From assembly GCA_022647615.1 (NCBI GenBank), contig JALCKZ010000001.1, forward strand, positions 110,178-174,177: a DNA stretch of 64,000 bases. The letters run 5' to 3'. The stretch's first letter is position 1. The number at the start of each line of letters is the position of its first letter. Made by a program: the position numbers and the translations under genes. The stretch is from Bacteroidales bacterium. Its GTDB lineage: Bacteria; Bacteroidota; Bacteroidia; Bacteroidales; UBA932. Under the pieces are notes generated by a model. It was not told the DNA's origin. It did no database searches and saw nothing but the letters and a program-made list of their open reading frames with translations. Positions 27,018 through 31,992 of this stretch are shown in pieces.

Positions 27018-27039
27018 TATCAATGTCCCCAAGCGGAGC

Positions 27040-27206
27040 GGCAAAGTCGCGAACGCCGCGCCAAAGGCGCGTGCCTCCTTCACCGCGGCAGCGGTGTTAA
27101 CCACAAGGCAATGCGCTGCTTTGTAGCGCATTGCTGCAGCCCGCGCAGCGGGCTGTACTTGCTGCTTTGTAGCGCATTGCTTCAGCAACCTGTAAAACAG
27201 GTTGCA
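27040..27206 (-). repeat. GC-rich multi-hairpin repeat, copy D (reverse orientation, diverged and partly duplicated)
   Basis: cgcgcc-aaa-ggcgcg, tgcctcc, caccgc-ggca-gcggtg, ttaaccacaa, gcaatgcgct-GCTTTGT-agcgcattgc. It then has cagcccgc-gca-gcgggctg, a second GCTTTGT-agcgcattgc half, and gcaacctg-taaaa-caggttgc. Confidence 0.8.
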
Positions 27207-27269
27207 GTAAAAAATCCCTTATTGAGGGAGATTTTTTGCAAAAAAAGCACTCATTGAGGGATTTTTATT

Positions 27270-27277
27270 TATATTTG
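27270..27277 (+). promoter_or_regulatory. Candidate -7 box (TAtaTTTG) for the COG1373 ATPase
   Basis: Exact TAnnTTTG, 17 nt upstream of the ATG at 27295. Confidence 0.4.
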
Positions 27278-27294
27278 CAACAAATCTTAAAGCC

Positions 27295-28470
27295 ATGATA
27301 GAGGATTCATTATATGCATACATGTCGGAAAAGATTAAAGCAACACCGACAAAATTCAACCGCTACAAGTACAGTCAAATCAATTGGGGTGACAGATTGA
27401 TTGGCATTATTGGTCCAAGAGGAATTGGAAAGACCACAATGATGCTACAATATCTCATAGCACATCAATACACTGGGAATCACTTATATGTAGCTGCTGA
27501 CAATATTTATTTTGCAAATCATACTATTCTAGAATTGGCCGATGATTTTGTTAAGGAAGGCGGAACTAATTTATACATAGATGAAATTCATAAATATTCT
27601 GGATGGTCAAGAGAATTAAAACAAGTTTATGATGTTCACCCTGATTTGCATATAGTTTTTACAGGTTCCTCTATATTAGACATATACAAAGGCAAAGCAG
27701 ATTTAAGCAGACGTGTGGTAATGTATGAAATGCAGGGAATGTCCTTCAGAGAGTATCTGGCATTATATCAAAATGTTGATGTCAGAGTTTACACTCTAGA
27801 GGAGATTCTAGCACATAAAGTTAAAATTAAAGGCATCCAACACCCGCTGCCTCTTTTCAGAAAATATCTTAAACAGGGCTACTATCCTTTTGCAATGGAG
27901 GGAAGTTTTGCAATACGAATGGAACAGGTCATTACTCAAACTATTGAAAATGACATACCTATGTACACAGACATGAAAGCAGTTACTGCAAAAAAATTGA
28001 AAAGGATGCTTTCTATTATTTCCACTCTTGCTCCTTTTAAACCAAACGCAGACAACATGGCAAAAGAAATCGGGGTTAGTAAAAATAATATCTCTGACTA
28101 TTTGATTATGCTGGAAAAAACAGGCATGATTGGACAACTTAGAGACAACACCGGAGGAATGCGTGGTTTGGGCAAAGTTGAAAAAGTTTATGTAGATAAT
28201 CCTAGTCTAATGTATGTTTTATCAGGAGATAAGCCTGAAATTGGCAATATCAGAGAGACCTTTTTTTATAATCAAATGCGAGTAATGAATGATGTAACCT
28301 CATCAAAGGCGTCTGATTTTAAAGTAGATAAATATACCTTTGAAATTGGAGGTCACAAAAAAGGACATAAGCAGATAGAAAATATCAGCAATGGTTTTGT
28401 GGTCAAGGATGACATTGAGGTCGGACACGGAGACGTTATCCCGCTGTGGCAATTTGGGTTTAATTACTAA
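27295..28470 (+). CDS. COG1373-type AAA+ ATPase with a degenerate C-terminal nuclease-like motif
   Basis: 391 aa with Walker A GPRGIGKTT, Walker B LYIDEIH and a wHTH-like middle region. The C-terminal SDFKVD-KYTFEIGGHKKG aligns with EVDLIV..VEIKSG of the paralogue at 110-1291. Confidence 0.75.
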   Translation: MIEDSLYAYMSEKIKATPTKFNRYKYSQINWGDRLIGIIGPRGIGKTTMMLQYLIAHQYTGNHLYVAADNIYFANHTILELADDFVKEGGTNLYIDEIHKYSGWSRELKQVYDVHPDLHIVFTGSSILDIYKGKADLSRRVVMYEMQGMSFREYLALYQNVDVRVYTLEEILAHKVKIKGIQHPLPLFRKYLKQGYYPFAMEGSFAIRMEQVITQTIENDIPMYTDMKAVTAKKLKRMLSIISTLAPFKPNADNMAKEIGVSKNNISDYLIMLEKTGMIGQLRDNTGGMRGLGKVEKVYVDNPSLMYVLSGDKPEIGNIRETFFYNQMRVMNDVTSSKASDFKVDKYTFEIGGHKKGHKQIENISNGFVVKDDIEVGHGDVIPLWQFGFNY

Positions 28471-28480
28471 CGTTATTTGT

Positions 28481-28488
28481 TAACTTTG
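28481..28488 (+). promoter_or_regulatory. Candidate -7 box (TAacTTTG) for mcrBC
   Basis: Exact TAnnTTTG in the 82-nt spacer, 64 nt upstream of the mcrB ATG. Confidence 0.35.
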
Positions 28489-28552
28489 TTATTGAATGAA
28501 ATAAAGTACGCTCTCTAAAATTAAAGGAATCAGGTAAAAAAGACAGCTAGCA

Positions 28553-30550
28553 ATGGATATTAAAAATAAAATCGAAGACGAATTAAGGAATAATAAACCA
28601 TTGTATGAAAACATCTCCTCCTCTAAAGAATTCTATTTCGCAAAAGCTAGAGATGCATGGAATCAATGGAAAAGCTTACAGATTGATGGTAAGTTGATTA
28701 CAGAACTTATTTCTTTAGATTACAAGGATTTTAGTAAAAGAGAAGATATTTCAAATATTAGGGATACCTTATTTAAGTTTGTTGCCCATTGTGACACTAA
28801 AGCAAAGGATAAAAATGATATAAACGAATATCAAGACCACCGAGCTATCGCGCAAGTTGGCGTTTATCAAAATAACTGGATTAGCCAATTATTAAAGTAC
28901 AAACTGGACCCTAAAAGCGTAACGGACACGATGACTAACCTATTCAACTACATTGAAGATCCAAGGAACCATCTGCCTATTTTAAGCGAGCAGCATAAAT
29001 CACTTATCGCAAAATTCTTCTTTGAAAAAGGATATGACAGAACGACTTTTGCAACTGAGGCTAAAGCATATTTTGAAAAGTTTTGCCAGTGCGAAAATGA
29101 CGAAAACAACACATACTTTTATTCAAGGCTAATCTATGGATTAAAAACGCTATGGGATAGCAGAGATATTCAAGGACTGATTTGCCGTGATTCTAATGAC
29201 TCCTGGAAAGACTCCTATATAAACGATATGAAGGCTAATAAGCACGCTTGTCTATGGTGGAATACAAGCCCCGTTGATAGAGCAGATGTCATTAAAAAAT
29301 TATCCTCAATTGTAGAAGCTGGAGGCACCTTTGTTGTATACTTTGTAAGTCAAAATTATGCGACATATAAGGCCACAGTAATAGATTTCGCTGTTGAAAA
29401 AAATTATACTAAAAAGGCCAACAACTGGAGGCAATATGAACCTGAACCTGTAGAATTTAAAGATAATTTTAAAGACTATAGTGATGGTGATAAACATGCG
29501 GCAATTGTTTTTCTTGCAAGCAAATTTGAGAAACTAACTTCACCAATTGACATCGAAAATTTTAAGACTTATAATGGTGCTAAATACCCGCAAGTTATAC
29601 ATATAGTAGCCTTTACAAAAATACTTTCAAACCAAGACAAAGAAATGGAAACAAATATAGATTCATGCAAGTACCTTTTGGAGACTAATCGCAATTTAAT
29701 ATTGCAAGGTGCTCCCGGTACAGGAAAAACATACAATTCTGCATCAATAGCAGTAGCTCTCATTGACGACAATTTTGTGAATTTTAATGACCATAGCGAA
29801 GTAATGAAAAAATATGAAGACCTGAGAAAAAACGAACAAATTGCTTTCATAACATTCCACCAATCAATGGATTATGAAGATTTTGTAGAAGGTCTAAGGC
29901 CTATTGTAAAAGATAAAAACATAGCCTATCAATTGGAAGATGGAATCTTTAAAAAAATATGTGCTGTAGCAAAAGGGAATCCGGATAAAAAGTATGTCCT
30001 TATTATCGATGAAATAAATCGTGGTAATGTTTCGAAAATCTTTGGCGAATTAATAACATTGATTGAAAAAGATAAGAGGCTCCTCAGCACACATCCACTA
30101 ACTATTCCACTAACATACTCAAAAGTTGATTTCGGAGTGCCTAACAATGTGTACATTATAGGGACGATGAATACTACAGACAGAAGCACTGGCACATTGG
30201 ATTATGCGCTACGTAGACGTTTTGTATTCAAAACATTGCCTTCTCAGAAAAATATTGTGGAGAATCAAGGTTCAAATATTGCTCAAGAAGCTGCAACACT
30301 ATTTGATGACGTATTTAATTTCATTAAGAGCTACAAGGCGGATGATATGAATATAGAGGATTTAATGGTAGGACATAGTTATTTTCTTGCTGAAAGTGAA
30401 AAAGAACTTAAGATGAAAATAAGCTATGGAGTGATCCCTTTAATCAAAGAATACATTAAGGATGGTATACTTCGTCAGCCCAAGACAACAGATAAAGACA
30501 CGAAAGACTATTTCGATAATTGGACAAATCTACTCCCATTAAGTCAATAG
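28553..30550 (+). CDS. mcrB: McrB-family AAA+ GTPase (Type IV restriction) with an unassigned N-terminal region of about 370 aa
   Basis: Walker A GAPGTGKTY (aa 386), FHQSMDYEDFVEG, Walker B LIIDEINRGNVSKIFGEL, the McrB signature GTMNTTDRS and ALRRRF. No AAA motif occurs in the first 370 aa or so. Confidence 0.85.
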   Translation: MDIKNKIEDELRNNKPLYENISSSKEFYFAKARDAWNQWKSLQIDGKLITELISLDYKDFSKREDISNIRDTLFKFVAHCDTKAKDKNDINEYQDHRAIAQVGVYQNNWISQLLKYKLDPKSVTDTMTNLFNYIEDPRNHLPILSEQHKSLIAKFFFEKGYDRTTFATEAKAYFEKFCQCENDENNTYFYSRLIYGLKTLWDSRDIQGLICRDSNDSWKDSYINDMKANKHACLWWNTSPVDRADVIKKLSSIVEAGGTFVVYFVSQNYATYKATVIDFAVEKNYTKKANNWRQYEPEPVEFKDNFKDYSDGDKHAAIVFLASKFEKLTSPIDIENFKTYNGAKYPQVIHIVAFTKILSNQDKEMETNIDSCKYLLETNRNLILQGAPGTGKTYNSASIAVALIDDNFVNFNDHSEVMKKYEDLRKNEQIAFITFHQSMDYEDFVEGLRPIVKDKNIAYQLEDGIFKKICAVAKGNPDKKYVLIIDEINRGNVSKIFGELITLIEKDKRLLSTHPLTIPLTYSKVDFGVPNNVYIIGTMNTTDRSTGTLDYALRRRFVFKTLPSQKNIVENQGSNIAQEAATLFDDVFNFIKSYKADDMNIEDLMVGHSYFLAESEKELKMKISYGVIPLIKEYIKDGILRQPKTTDKDTKDYFDNWTNLLPLSQ

Positions 30551-30554
30551 TCTG

Positions 30555-31829
30555 ATGAGAACAACTAAGGTCATTCATGAACATGATTGTTTTCCAGATA
30601 AAGTATCATATCTTAAATATGATTCGAGGCTAGGGAATGGTTTTCCCCTATTTCCTCCTGGTACCTCGGATTTCAATCAGCGTTATTTTATTCAATGGGA
30701 AGGGCTTGATAATAAGCCCGGTTATAGAGCATCTTATATGATAGGTGCTCAGTGGATAAATACTGAGCATGATCAAATTCCCGTAGCAGTTGTACCAAAA
30801 ATTGAACACATAGATTTTTTAAAAATGTTTATGTCCTGTTTCTACAGTAATTTAGCTGAAGACTCATTTTCTAAGATTTACCATATTGATACCTCAAAGA
30901 AGGAAATTGAATGTCAAGAACTTGACAGTATTTTAAGCCCTTTAATTGTCCTTCATTTTCTTGCCGTAACTAAATCTCTTATAGCAAAAGGCTTAAAAAA
31001 AGATTATGTGAATAGGGATGGGAACATGCATAAAGTTAAAGGCAGGCTGGATATTCGTAAGAACGAAAAAACTAATGTGTTGACAAGAAGACTTGACCGA
31101 TTTTACTGTAATTATCAAGAATATTCAGAGGATATCCCGGAAAATAGAATCATTAAAAAAGCTCTTATAATATCGCAAGTGATTCTACAAAAAATACAAC
31201 CACAACAATCAGAAGGGGCTATCAATATCTTGCGCAAATGCCTAGCTGTAATGAGTGGAGTTGGTAACACGATAGAGCAACATGAGGTCTCAATGATTAA
31301 ACATCATAAACTTTTCAAAGAGTATGAAGAGAGTATAAAGTTGGCAAAACTCATTTTAAAAAGATATGATTTCAGCATTACCAAAGAAGGTAAAAACCAT
31401 GATTTTGTGCCAGTATTTTGGATTGATATGCCATTGCTATATGAGCACTATGTTTATGGATTATTGTCTGCATCGTATCCTGACGATATAATCTATCAAG
31501 CTGAAGGACAGACCGGATATCCTGATTTCTTGTGTAAGTCACATAAGTTGATTTTGGATACCAAGTACATTCCTGATAGTGATATACATTTGGATACTTA
31601 TGTAATTCGGCAGTTGTCAGGATATGCTCGCGACAATGCAATACTCAATCAACTAAACGCAGACTATAAAGAAGTGGTGCCATGCGTTATCATATATCCC
31701 AAGGAGTCAGTTGATAATGAGGTAGTAAATGATTTTAACAAACCGTTAAATAAATTATGGACACAATACGAAGGTTTAGTGGAGTTTTACACAATTTGTG
31801 TTAATCTGCCTAATATAGTAAAAAGATAG
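30555..31829 (+). CDS. mcrC: McrC-like nuclease subunit
   Basis: 424 aa starting 4 nt after the mcrB stop. C-terminal PD-(D/E)xK-like GYPDFLC...LILDTKY, with size and order typical of McrC. Confidence 0.8.
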   Translation: MRTTKVIHEHDCFPDKVSYLKYDSRLGNGFPLFPPGTSDFNQRYFIQWEGLDNKPGYRASYMIGAQWINTEHDQIPVAVVPKIEHIDFLKMFMSCFYSNLAEDSFSKIYHIDTSKKEIECQELDSILSPLIVLHFLAVTKSLIAKGLKKDYVNRDGNMHKVKGRLDIRKNEKTNVLTRRLDRFYCNYQEYSEDIPENRIIKKALIISQVILQKIQPQQSEGAINILRKCLAVMSGVGNTIEQHEVSMIKHHKLFKEYEESIKLAKLILKRYDFSITKEGKNHDFVPVFWIDMPLLYEHYVYGLLSASYPDDIIYQAEGQTGYPDFLCKSHKLILDTKYIPDSDIHLDTYVIRQLSGYARDNAILNQLNADYKEVVPCVIIYPKESVDNEVVNDFNKPLNKLWTQYEGLVEFYTICVNLPNIVKR

Positions 31830-31840
31830 TACTATACGAG

Positions 31841-31962
31841 TTGCCAGCGCACAAAGCGCACTGGCAATTAGTGGTTTACGCGGCTCCGCCGCGAAGCTGC
31901 ACGCGCTCCGCGCGGGCAAAAAAAAACAGGCAAAAATGCCTGTTATTTTTTATGCCTTGTTA
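31841..31962 (+). repeat. GC-rich multi-hairpin repeat, copy A (forward orientation, most compact copy)
   Basis: ttgccagcgc-ACAAAGC-gcactggcaa, ttagtggttta, cgcggc-tcc-gccgcg, aagctgca, cgcgc-tcc-gcgcg, ggcaaaaaaaaa, caggc-aaaaat-gcctg, ttattttttatgccttgtta. Confidence 0.9.
31925..31951. terminator. Bidirectional rho-independent terminator between mcrC and recJ (part of repeat copy A)
   Basis: Stem aacaggc/gcctgtt, preceded by A9 and followed by aTTTTTT. The flanking genes are convergent. Confidence 0.7.
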
Positions 31963-31992
31963 ATCTCCTTATATTACTTCTTGAAGATTTTC

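What the first reader, a model, noticed from the sequence alone, without database searches (positions are those of the whole stretch)
28553..29662. McrB homologue with a roughly 370-aa N-terminal region I cannot assign to a known reader domain
The AAA+/GTPase module starts only at about aa 375 (Walker A at aa 386). The N-terminus differs in size from the roughly 160-aa E. coli McrB DNA-binding domain. It appears to have two lobes:
- A helical lobe (aa 1-200).
- A beta-rich lobe (aa 205-365), including CLWWNTSP...GGTFVVYFVSQNYATYKATVIDFAV...HAAIVFLASKFEKLTSPIDIENFK...IHIVAFTKI.
The strand pattern of the second lobe is reminiscent of PUA-like (EVE/ASCH/SRA-type) modified-base readers, which are known to be fused to McrB in other lineages. 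The specificity domain determines which DNA modification is restricted, so a new domain would imply a new target specificity.
Basis: inference. Interest (0 to 1): 0.6.

Follow-up and report, generated by a model that had tools for sequence, protein, structure and literature searches.

The report
McrB with undescribed two-domain reader
This gene encodes the motor subunit of an intact McrBC anti-phage restriction system; its target-recognition end is an undescribed helical domain followed by a very divergent domain with the known PUA-like (EVE/YTH/ASCH) modified-base reader fold, so it is a new family within a known design, not a new kind of system.

Summary
ORF 28553-30550 (665 aa) is a McrB-type GTPase with all motifs intact, followed 4 nt later by mcrC. 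Its first ~365 aa match nothing in Pfam, NCBIfam, PADLOC, PHROGs or PDB sequences. It is not a mis-fused ORF: more than 200 homologues have the same single-ORF layout.

AlphaFold2 gives two confident domains.
- **Lobe 1 (aa 1-205)** has 13 helices and no structural relative in the PDB (best Foldseek E 1.6).
- **Lobe 2 (aa 206-365)** has EVE-like β-α-β-α-β-β-(α)-β-β-β topology. All 50 best PDB hits are PUA-like readers (THYN1 EVE, YTH, ASCH), but the scores are weak (E 0.02-0.4) and no sequence-profile link to EVE exists.

Across the family, lobe 1 is constant. The slot between it and the GTPase holds lobe 2, a canonical EVE domain, other unrelated cassettes, or nothing.

Lobe 2 is therefore most likely a swappable modified-base reader. 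Lobe 1 is an uncharacterised platform domain that marks a mostly Bacteroidota McrB subfamily.

The cassette is a low-GC insertion between aroK and recJ, and that site is empty in four related species.

Verdict: new variant of a known kind, moderate interest. Notes from this scan report similar helical-plus-PUA McrB N-termini on other DNA; I did not check these.

The parts
28553..29167 (+). McrB lobe 1 (aa 1-205): all-alpha domain of 13 helices. It is the constant, family-defining N-terminal domain, and its function is unknown.
   Evidence: AF2 of the domain alone: pLDDT 95.5, pTM 0.90. No family, PDB-sequence or Foldseek match. Invariant residues: F27 D81 N91 R97 A100 W109 P137 S145 H148 F166 N185 Y195 W201. 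It was detected in 274 of the 283 related proteins in hand, whatever follows it.
29168..29647 (+). McrB lobe 2 (aa 206-365): divergent alpha/beta domain with a PUA-like (EVE/YTH/ASCH-type) fold. It is the putative modified-base reader and occupies the variable slot.
   Evidence: Secondary structure: b208-212, a217-228, b232-236, a243-255, b260-266, b269-280, a282-292, b318-333, b337-339, b351-357. All Foldseek PDB top-50 hits are PUA-like. The best named BFVD hits are ASCH-like. Conserved aromatic and acidic residues: W218 W235 W292 Y309 D278. Homologues carry Pfam EVE in the same position.
29648..30550 (+). Linker plus McrB AAA+ GTPase and lid (aa 366-665, stop included).
   Evidence: AAA_5 aa 381-557, 1e-17. 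NCBIfam McrB model aa 366-648, 5e-44. Precomputed PF28529 McrB_lid. Walker A at 386, Walker B at 483, NxxD signature MNTTDRS at 539, RRRF at 554.
30555..31829 (+). mcrC: the nuclease partner (424 aa). It starts 4 nt after the mcrB stop.
   Evidence: Pfam McrBC PF10117, 1.2e-30. NCBIfam McrC model, 1.2e-17. PD...D-x-K motif: YPDFL at 322, LILDTKY at 332, QLSGYA at 353. A McrC homologue follows the McrB homologue in 10 of 14 related loci examined.

Best explanation
The ORF is the McrB subunit of a functional two-gene McrBC Type IV (modification-dependent) restriction system carried on a small horizontally acquired islet. Its 365-aa N-terminal region consists of two independently folding domains.

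Lobe 2 (aa 206-365) is a highly divergent PUA-like barrel of the EVE/YTH/ASCH kind. It sits in a variable 'reader slot' and most likely flips out a modified base of incoming DNA and holds it in a pocket. I infer that this pocket is lined by the conserved W218, W235, W292, Y309 and D278.

Lobe 1 (aa 1-205) is an undescribed helical domain. It is the constant platform of this mostly Bacteroidota McrB subfamily and links whatever reader is present to the motor. It may also contribute binding of its own.

By analogy with E. coli and T. gammatolerans McrBC, the next steps would be as follows. After recognition, the GTP-bound McrB hexamer recruits McrC. GTP hydrolysis drives translocation. The PD-(D/E)xK site of McrC then cuts the DNA.

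Shown here: the domain boundaries, the predicted folds, the intact motifs, the constant-versus-variable pattern across homologues, and the insertion of the cassette. Inferred: base flipping, the pocket residues, the DNA substrate, and which modification is read.
For: GTPase and nuclease:
- GTPase motifs are intact and mcrC is adjacent.

Structure prediction:
- AF2 models are confident: pLDDT 92.5 for aa 1-370 and 95.5 for aa 1-205.
[quoted passage not shown] This matches the b-a-b-a-b-b-b-b pattern given for EVE in PMC7641849.
- All 50 best Foldseek PDB hits are PUA-like readers: THYN1 EVE with 5mC DNA (5j3e, prob 0.90), YTH of Mmi1/YTHDF/YTHDC1, and ASCH of TRIP4 and TTHA0113.
- The best BFVD hits include small phage proteins, some named ASCH; the best small one has prob 1.00 and TMt 0.51.

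Architecture across homologues:
- P0143 and P0141 have lobe 1 followed by Pfam EVE (1.7e-14) where lobe 2 would be.
- P0072 and P0071 have lobe 1, lobe 2 and then EVE.
- At least 8 further unrelated 140-300 aa cassettes, or none, fill the same slot.
- This is the pattern expected of swappable specificity modules.
- McrC follows in related genomes.

Genomic setting:
- The cassette has 34.5% GC against 41.5% for the window.
- aroK and recJ are 40-140 bp apart in four same-genus species.
- The module is in 1 of 24 congeners and 1 of 400 genomes drawn from the phylum.

Literature: McrB N-terminal domains set specificity, and PUA-like readers are common there (PMC7641849, PMC12707154, 10.64898/2026.08.31.748284).
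Against: - No structural hit reaches E<=1e-3. TM-scores are only 0.3-0.5 and rmsd is 5-8 A.
- There is no sequence-profile link to EVE. hhalign of lobe 2 against the EVE domains of its own homologues gives probability 1.5%.
- No Pfam family recurs among 22 lobe 2 members at E<=10.
- A lobe 2 profile finds nothing in PDB sequences.
- I could not inspect model coordinates, so the proposed aromatic pocket is untested.
- Both lobes are acidic to neutral (median net charge -5 and -4), which is not typical of DNA-binding domains.
- Minimal homologues have lobe 1 fused directly to the GTPase, so lobe 1 rather than lobe 2 could be the essential recognition element.
- No binding or restriction data exist for any member of the family.
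Confidence: 0.6

Rival explanations
1. Lobe 1 is the real specificity or DNA-binding determinant, with a new fold and a conserved polar pocket. Lobe 2 is an optional accessory that only modulates or widens recognition.
For: Lobe 1 was detected in 274 of the 283 related proteins in hand. It is fused directly to the GTPase, with a 12-40 aa gap, in complete proteins and genomic loci: P0112, P0121, P0133, L017, L019, L020. Those enzymes have no other N-terminal domain. Its invariant residues are largely polar (D81 N91 R97 S145 H148 N185, plus K87 K117 R/K149), as expected for a ligand pocket rather than a passive spacer. Foldseek gives a weak but recurrent resemblance to the base-flipping HhH-GPD glycosylases OGG1 and MutY.
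Against: The glycosylase resemblance is not significant (E 2-8, prob <=0.2, TMq <=0.31). Lobe 1 is acidic (median net charge -5). No profile or PDB-sequence hit supports any nucleic-acid-binding family. Minimal variants could rely on a reader encoded elsewhere.
Confidence: 0.2
2. The PUA-like resemblance is fortuitous. The N-terminal region is not a nucleic-acid base reader but a regulatory or sensor module, for example one that senses a phage protein or a small molecule or controls hexamer assembly.
For: All structural matches are sub-significant, and there is no sequence-level link. Both lobes are acidic.
Against: Fifty of fifty top PDB hits fall in one superfamily, and an independent library gives ASCH-type proteins. 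Canonical EVE occupies the identical position in homologues. In every characterised canonical McrB the N-terminal domain binds DNA (PMC12707154, 10.64898/2026.08.31.748284).
Confidence: 0.1
3. The system targets modified RNA rather than DNA, as proposed for CoCoNuT-type McrBC relatives. YTH, ASCH and PUA domains are mostly RNA binders.
For: The best-scoring structural neighbours include the m6A-RNA readers YTHDF2/3, YTHDC1 and Mmi1. PMC11090510 predicts RNA targeting for one McrBC branch.
Against: The GTPase signature is NxxD (MNTTDRS), not the NxD that defines the CoCoNuT clade (PMC11090510). I saw no cold-shock domain, tandem nucleases or coiled-coil partner. McrC carries an ordinary PD-(D/E)xK motif. 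The top hit, THYN1, is bound to 5mC DNA.
Confidence: 0.07
4. The 370-aa region is a separate upstream gene wrongly joined to mcrB (mis-fused ORF).
For: One metagenomic relative (L008) has the N-terminal module as its own 364-aa ORF overlapping the GTPase ORF by 4 nt.
Against: The window has one uninterrupted 665-aa frame. The identical protein is called on at least 22 contigs. 205 of 283 homologues show lobe1-lobe2-GTPase in one ORF, as do independent genomes.
Confidence: 0.01

Closest known systems
E. coli K-12 McrBC (EcoKMcrBC), the prototype Type IV restriction system
   Same: Two-gene operon with mcrB upstream of mcrC. McrB consists of an N-terminal recognition region, a linker and an AAA+ GTPase with Walker A/B, the NxxD signature loop and an arginine finger. 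McrC has DUF2357 plus a PD-(D/E)xK nuclease (PMC11090510).
   Different: The E. coli N-terminal domain is a single ~160-aa DUF3578/ADAM (SRA-like) domain that flips 5mC. Here the region is 365 aa in two domains. It has no DUF3578 profile hit, and no McrB N-terminal domain appears among the 50 Foldseek hits listed. The NCBIfam McrB equivalog score is 150.7 bits against a cut-off of 637, and only the GTPase part aligns.
EVE-McrB fusions (Bell, Wolf & Koonin 2020, PMC7641849)
   Same: A PUA-like modified-base reader sits N-terminal to a McrB GTPase. The paper reports this architecture as abundant in Bacteroidetes, often with additional domains. Some homologues of this protein carry a genuine Pfam EVE domain in the lobe 2 position.
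   Different: Lobe 2 is not recognised by the EVE model at E<=10 in any of 22 members. It shows no profile-profile similarity to the EVE domains of its own homologues. It also has a helix-plus-loop insertion (aa 282-317) between barrel strands. I did not find the preceding 205-aa helical domain described in the passages I read.
Thermococcus gammatolerans McrB (YTH-McrB, reads 6mA; PDB 6P0F) and Staphylothermus marinus McrB (PUA-like N-terminal domain), cited in PMC12707154
   Same: These are canonical McrB motors whose N-terminal reader is a PUA-superfamily barrel rather than DUF3578. YTH domains are among the best structural neighbours of lobe 2.
   Different: They are single-domain readers. 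There is no sequence similarity to any PDB chain. Neither archaeal McrB N-terminal domain appears among the 50 PDB hits listed. No helical lobe 1 equivalent is known for them.
LlaJI / LlaI / BsuMI non-canonical McrBC relatives
   Same: A McrB-like motor plus a McrC-like nuclease, with a modular DNA-binding component.
   Different: Those systems recognise specific unmodified sites, through a B3 domain in LlaJI or the R1 protein in LlaI. They come with methyltransferases and lack GTP specificity (PMC12707154; 10.64898/2026.08.31.748284). No methyltransferase is in this cassette, and the motor has the canonical signature loop.

Membership tests
McrB-type AAA+ GTPase (canonical NxxD clade) | Walker A, Walker B, the MNT[A/S/T]D[R/K]S signature loop (NxxD) and an arginine finger/sensor 2 | tested here: met
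   GAPGTGKT at 386, LIIDEINRGN at 483, MNTTDRS at 539, RRRF at 554. AAA_5 1e-17. McrB model aligned over aa 366-648, 5e-44. Precomputed McrB_lid PF28529.
McrB-type AAA+ GTPase (canonical NxxD clade) | Operon partner McrC (DUF2357 plus PD-(D/E)xK nuclease) | tested here: met
   The ORF at 30555-31829 hits PF10117 at 1.2e-30. D...D-x-K motif at aa 323-336. McrC follows in 10 of 14 related loci.
E. coli McrB equivalog (NCBIfam NF008457) | Full-length score above the curated cut-off (637 bits), including the DUF3578/ADAM N-terminal domain | tested here: not met
   150.7 bits. Only model positions 181-454 (the GTPase) align. No DUF3578 hit at E<=1.
EVE domain (Pfam PF01878) | Significant match to the family profile | tested here: not met
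   No hit for aa 1-370 at E<=1, nor for 22 lobe 2 homologues at E<=10. hhalign against EVE domains of homologous McrBs gives probability 1.5%.
PUA-like superfamily (EVE/YTH/ASCH fold) | Pseudo-barrel with b-a-b-a-b-b-b-b strand order and structural superposition on known members | tested here: met
   The secondary-structure order of the pLDDT-92 model fits, with one inserted helix. All 50 top Foldseek PDB hits are EVE, YTH or ASCH, with prob up to 0.93. BFVD gives ASCH-like hits with prob up to 1.0. Caveat: E-values are 5e-3 to 0.4 and TM 0.3-0.5, so this is fold-level evidence only.
PUA-like superfamily (EVE/YTH/ASCH fold) | Pocket (aromatic cage) that holds a flipped modified base | not testable with these tools
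   Conserved W218, W235, W292, Y309 and D278 are candidates. Model coordinates could not be inspected, and no binding data exist.
YTH domain (Pfam PF04146) | Significant match to the family profile or to a solved YTH sequence | tested here: not met
   No Pfam hit. No PDB-sequence hit with the single sequence or the profile. Only fold-level Foldseek similarity.
CoCoNuT subclass of McrBC (PMC11090510) | NxD variant of the GTPase signature, coiled-coils, tandem nucleases, CSD/RNA-linked domains | tested here: not met
   The signature is NxxD. No Pfam CSD or second-nuclease hit in McrB or McrC; coiled coils were not specifically tested. The clade definition was read.
HhH-GPD DNA glycosylase fold (considered for lobe 1) | Significant structural or profile match; HhH motif plus a catalytic Asp | tested here: not met
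   OGG1 and MutY hits only at E 2-8, prob <=0.2, TMq <=0.31. No Pfam or PDB profile hit. The model has a loop, not a helix-hairpin-helix, at aa 91-105.

The most novel reading that the evidence does not exclude
Lobe 1 is a new fold that is itself a recognition module, with a conserved polar pocket (D81, N91, R97, S145, H148, N185). On this reading it is the primary trigger of a whole, mostly Bacteroidota clade of McrBC enzymes. It would read a DNA feature or ligand that no known Type IV reader covers, and PUA-like cassettes such as lobe 2 would be plugged in behind it to widen specificity.
Probability: 0.25. Interest if true: 0.6.

Novelty: new variant of a known kind. Interest (0 to 1): 0.4.

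Why it matters
McrB N-terminal domains decide which modified DNA a Type IV system attacks. They have also supplied tools for mapping epigenetic marks.

This locus is an example of a widespread McrB subfamily that no domain database annotates: 408 clusters at 50% identity, mainly from gut and environmental Bacteroidota. Its members share a constant helical domain with no known structural relative, plus a slot in which different readers are exchanged (a divergent PUA-like barrel, canonical EVE, and others).

Characterising it would do three things:
- add a new reader family to the PUA-like superfamily;
- assign a function to a new helical domain;
- show how restriction specificity is diversified by cassette exchange in gut Bacteroidales.

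It does not change the picture of how McrBC works.

Tried and rejected
1. **Known profile in the N-terminus.** Pfam, NCBIfam, PADLOC and PHROGs gave nothing for aa 1-370 or for either lobe. Scanning 22 lobe 2 and 20 lobe 1 homologues at E<=10 gave no recurrent family.
2. **PF28529.** This family was precomputed on all homologues and is absent from the local Pfam. I suspected it might be the N-terminal domain. It is 'McrB_lid', the C-terminal AAA+ lid. A literature search for PF28529 and PF28530 found nothing, so PF28530 remains unidentified.
3. **PDB by sequence.** Neither single-sequence nor profile searches with either lobe found anything credible.
4. **Sequence-level homology of lobe 2 to EVE.** hhalign against the EVE domains of homologous McrBs gave probability 1.5%. 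That EVE profile had only four sequences.
5. **Lobe 1 fold search.** Nothing was significant. The OGG1/MutY resemblance was considered and rejected.
6. **Non-McrB contexts.** A profile search restricted to proteins of 200-650 aa returned only McrB proteins, fragments and one split gene. No nuclease fusions or stand-alone families appeared.
7. **The upstream AAA_14/DUF4143 ATPase as a third component.** It is not a conserved neighbour.
8. **The search for related loci.** The diverse alignment A7 failed for lack of a conserved stretch. It was repeated with the closer alignment A8.
9. **Host methylation as a clue to the target.** It is only weakly informative.
Full report
**1. What is at the coordinates**

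The window has one uninterrupted ORF at 28553-30550 (+), 665 aa, followed after 4 nt by a 424-aa ORF at 30555-31829.

The 665-aa protein:
- hits Pfam AAA_5 at aa 381-557 (1e-17);
- aligns to the NCBIfam E. coli McrB model only over aa 366-648 (5e-44, 150.7 bits against a cut-off of 637), which is the GTPase part of that model.

The second ORF hits Pfam McrBC (1.2e-30) and the NCBIfam McrC model.

The catalytic motifs are intact:
- Walker A GAPGTGKT at 386;
- Walker B LIIDEINRGN at 483;
- McrB signature loop MNTTDRS at 539, an NxxD motif;
- RRRF at 554;
- in McrC, YPDFL...LILDTKY...QLSGYA, a PD...D-x-K nuclease motif.

**2. The N-terminal region is unassigned but real**

Residues 1-370 gave no credible hit in:
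- Pfam, NCBIfam or PADLOC;
- PHROGs;
- PDB sequences.

All homologues carry a precomputed family, PF28529, that is missing from the local Pfam. It turned out to be 'McrB_lid', the C-terminal lid of the GTPase. Precomputed hits from a newer Pfam release therefore also list no family for the N-terminus.

The region is nevertheless strongly conserved:
- A search of 1.84 billion cluster representatives with aa 1-370 found 408 proteins at E<=1e-3 and 91 at E<=1e-30.
- Many matched only aa ~15-205 or only aa ~203-362, which shows two separable modules.

The mis-fusion idea is refuted:
- The identical protein is called on at least 22 contigs, and the four shown have the same neighbours.
- 205 of the 283 related proteins in hand have lobe1-lobe2-GTPase in one ORF.
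- Independent genomes show the same layout.
- Homologues align from residue 1, which supports the start codon.

**3. Structure prediction**

With a 71-sequence alignment, AlphaFold2 gave mean pLDDT 92.5 for aa 1-370. pTM was 0.63, as expected for two domains with an uncertain mutual orientation.

| Region | Prediction | Content |
|---|---|---|
| Lobe 1 alone (aa 1-205) | pLDDT 95.5, pTM 0.90 | 13 helices |
| Lobe 2 (aa 206-365) | part of the aa 1-370 model | mixed alpha/beta |

Lobe 2 has the order b208-212, a217-228, b232-236, a243-255, b260-266, b269-280, a282-292, b318-333, b337-339, b351-357, a360-369. This is the b-a-b-a-b-b-b-b order given for the EVE barrel in PMC7641849, with one extra helix and a long loop (aa 282-317) inserted after the fourth strand.

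**4. Fold comparison**

Foldseek of the aa 1-370 model against the PDB returned 50 listed hits, and all are PUA-like base readers:
- THYN1 EVE bound to 5mC DNA (5j3e; E 0.023, prob 0.90);
- YTH domains of Mmi1, YTHDF1/2/3, YTHDC1, MRB1 and CPSF30;
- ASCH domains of TRIP4/ASC1 and TTHA0113.

Scores are modest: E 0.02-0.4, target-normalised TM 0.3-0.48, and none below 1e-3.

Against BFVD, the best small hits include phage proteins named ASCH. The best small one has E 5e-3, prob 1.00 and TMt 0.51.

No SRA-type domain, E. coli McrB-N, T. gammatolerans YTH-McrB or B3 domain is among the 50 PDB hits listed.

At the sequence level there is no link:
- hhalign of a 60-sequence lobe 2 profile against the EVE domains found in its own homologues gives probability 1.5%;
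- a lobe 2 profile finds nothing in PDB sequences;
- no Pfam family recurs among 22 members at E<=10.

I conclude, at about 80% confidence, that lobe 2 has the PUA-like fold. It is a separate, very divergent family and not a member of Pfam EVE, YTH or ASCH.

Lobe 1 searched alone has no structural relative:
- The best E is 1.6 and all probabilities are <=0.2.
- A recurrent but insignificant resemblance to the HhH-GPD glycosylases OGG1 and MutY (TMq 0.25-0.31) was considered and rejected.
- Profile searches of PDB sequences and Pfam were also empty.

**5. Architecture across the family**

This is the most informative result. I built HMMs for lobe 1, lobe 2, EVE and the two halves of the GTPase, then scanned the 283 related proteins in hand.

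| Architecture | Count |
|---|---|
| lobe1-lobe2-GTPase | 205 |
| lobe1-GTPase with no lobe 2 detected | 24 |
| lobe1-lobe2-EVE-GTPase | 2 |
| lobe1-EVE(-GTPase) | 2 |

Further details:
- Pfam confirms EVE in P0143 (aa 224-356, 1.7e-14), exactly where lobe 2 would be, and in P0072 behind lobe 2.
- Among proteins without lobe 2, some have lobe 1 joined to the GTPase by only 12-40 residues: P0112, P0121 and P0133, and the genomic loci L017, L019 and L020.
- Others carry 140-300 aa inserts. These fall into about ten clusters with no detectable similarity to each other. Apart from the cluster that contains the P0143 EVE domain, none resembles lobe 2 or EVE, and Pfam does not recognise the ones scanned.
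- Many members also have 90-430 aa of unassigned sequence in front of lobe 1.

Lobe 1 is therefore the constant element of the subfamily. The position between it and the motor is a slot in which different cassettes are exchanged. That is the behaviour expected of specificity modules, and it gives independent support for reading lobe 2 as a reader.

The module was never seen outside a McrB context. A McrC gene follows in 10 of 14 related loci. One relative (L008) has the module as a separate ORF overlapping the GTPase ORF by 4 nt. This is either a split gene or a frameshift.

**6. Conserved residues**

In lobe 2, the conserved positions are mainly aromatic, plus one acidic residue:
- W218 (start of helix 1);
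- W235 (strand 2);
- W292 (end of the inserted helix);
- Y309 (the following loop);
- D278 (end of strand 4);
- F260, Y272, F279, L321 and F337, probably core residues.

From my recollection of YTH structures, the cage is built from one Trp on strand 2 and two aromatic residues in the b4-b5 loop. W235, W292 and Y309 would fit that pattern. This is an inference, because I could not inspect the coordinates.

In lobe 1, the invariant residues include many polar ones: D81, N91, R97, S145, H148, N185, with C80, K87, D95, K117, N129, R/K149 and T187. That suggests a pocket or active site rather than a passive spacer.

Both lobes are acidic to neutral (median net charge -5 and -4). This is a point against non-specific DNA binding.

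**7. Genomic setting**

- The cassette at 27295-31829 comprises an AAA_14/DUF4143 ATPase, mcrB and mcrC. It has 34.5% GC against 41.5% for the window.
- In four species of the same genus, parC, aroK and recJ are contiguous, with only 40-140 bp between aroK and recJ. Here, about 5 kb lies between them.
- The N-terminal module was found in only 1 of 24 other species of the genus (37% identity) and in 1 of 400 genomes drawn evenly from the phylum.
- Named relatives are almost all Bacteroidota: Muribaculaceae, Porphyromonadaceae, Odoribacter, Flavobacterium, Sphingobacterium, Cyclobacteriaceae and Capnocytophaga.
- The pattern is that of a horizontally moving defence islet.
- The upstream ATPase hits the PADLOC candidate system PDC-S01, but it is not a conserved neighbour of homologous McrBC loci.

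The host genome has no detectable C5-cytosine methyltransferase, Dam-type or beta-class N6/N4 methyltransferase. It has only gamma-class N6 methyltransferases of the HsdM type. A cytosine-modification target would therefore be harmless to the host, and a context-free 6mA target would be less so. This is only a weak hint.

**8. Mechanism proposed**

Shown here:
- an intact McrB GTPase of the canonical NxxD clade with its McrC nuclease;
- two confidently folded N-terminal domains;
- a PUA-like fold for lobe 2;
- cassette exchange at the lobe 2 position.

Inferred from established knowledge of E. coli and T. gammatolerans McrBC (PMC12707154; PMC11090510; 10.64898/2026.08.31.748284):
- the N-terminal region recognises modified DNA;
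- the GTPase forms a hexamer that binds McrC;
- GTP hydrolysis drives translocation;
- McrC cleaves.

My best reading (0.6) is that lobe 2 is the modified-base reader and lobe 1 is a subfamily-specific platform that may add binding of its own.

The main rival (0.2) is that lobe 1 is the essential recognition element, because minimal enzymes have nothing else. The remaining rivals are less likely:
- a fortuitous fold match with a regulatory role (0.1);
- an RNA target (0.07), disfavoured by the NxxD signature and the absence of CoCoNuT features;
- mis-fusion, which is refuted.

**9. Comparison with what is known, and novelty**

A PUA-like reader fused to McrB is the commonest EVE defence architecture. 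It is reported as abundant in Bacteroidetes, 'with additional domains often present' (PMC7641849). YTH-McrB and a PUA-like McrB N-terminus have solved structures (cited in PMC12707154). The design is therefore known.

What is not described, as far as the libraries and papers I could search show:
- the lobe 2 family itself, which no profile recognises;
- the constant 205-aa helical domain, which has no structural relative;
- the explicit constant-domain-plus-variable-slot organisation of this subfamily.

Notes from this scan report similar helical-plus-PUA N-termini in McrB genes of other genomes. I could not check whether those helical domains are homologous to lobe 1.

I classify the finding as a new variant of a known kind, with moderate interest (0.4).

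Noticed in passing
window 27295-28470: The upstream 391-aa AAA_14/DUF4143 ATPase matches the PADLOC candidate defence system PDC-S01 (3.5e-21). It shares the low GC of the cassette (35.7%). It is not a conserved neighbour of homologous McrBC loci, so it is probably an independent passenger of the same islet.
   Followed up: partly
window 27018-31992; L022-L025: The roughly 5-kb cassette lies between aroK and recJ. In four species of the same genus these two genes are only 40-140 bp apart, which is an empty site. Cassette GC is 34.5% against 41.5% for the window.
   Followed up: yes
window 29645-29647 (Met365 of McrB): A Met in the linker just before the GTPase is conserved in 45 of 71 homologues. 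It could be an internal start producing a reader-less McrB-S, as known for E. coli mcrB (PMC12707154). This is untested.
   Followed up: partly
homologues P0034, P0036, P0038, P0072 and others, at the position of ~aa 470 of the window protein: Many homologues of about 740-1100 aa carry an insertion of roughly 100-250 aa inside the GTPase domain, after the GIFKxIC motif. This is the kind of insert that Bell et al. 2024 suggest encodes further specificity domains. The window protein lacks it.
   Followed up: no
L008:227-2784 (Logan SRR21547730_1037): In this relative the lobe1+lobe2 module is a separate 364-aa ORF overlapping the 488-aa GTPase ORF by 4 nt, and McrC follows. It is either a natural three-gene version or a frameshift.
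   Followed up: no
G000 whole genome (for example C1:502725-503672 and C1:1534460-1534843): The host genome has no detectable C5-cytosine (PF00145), Dam-type (PF02086) or beta-class N6/N4 (PF01555) DNA methyltransferase. It has only gamma-class N6_Mtase genes, one of them HsdM-like.
   Followed up: partly
homologues P0076, P0116, P0120, P0153 and others: About 30 family members have a further 90-430 aa of sequence in front of lobe 1. Pfam recognised nothing there in the five I scanned (P0076, P0116, P0120, P0150, P0153). These may be yet more reader cassettes.
   Followed up: partly
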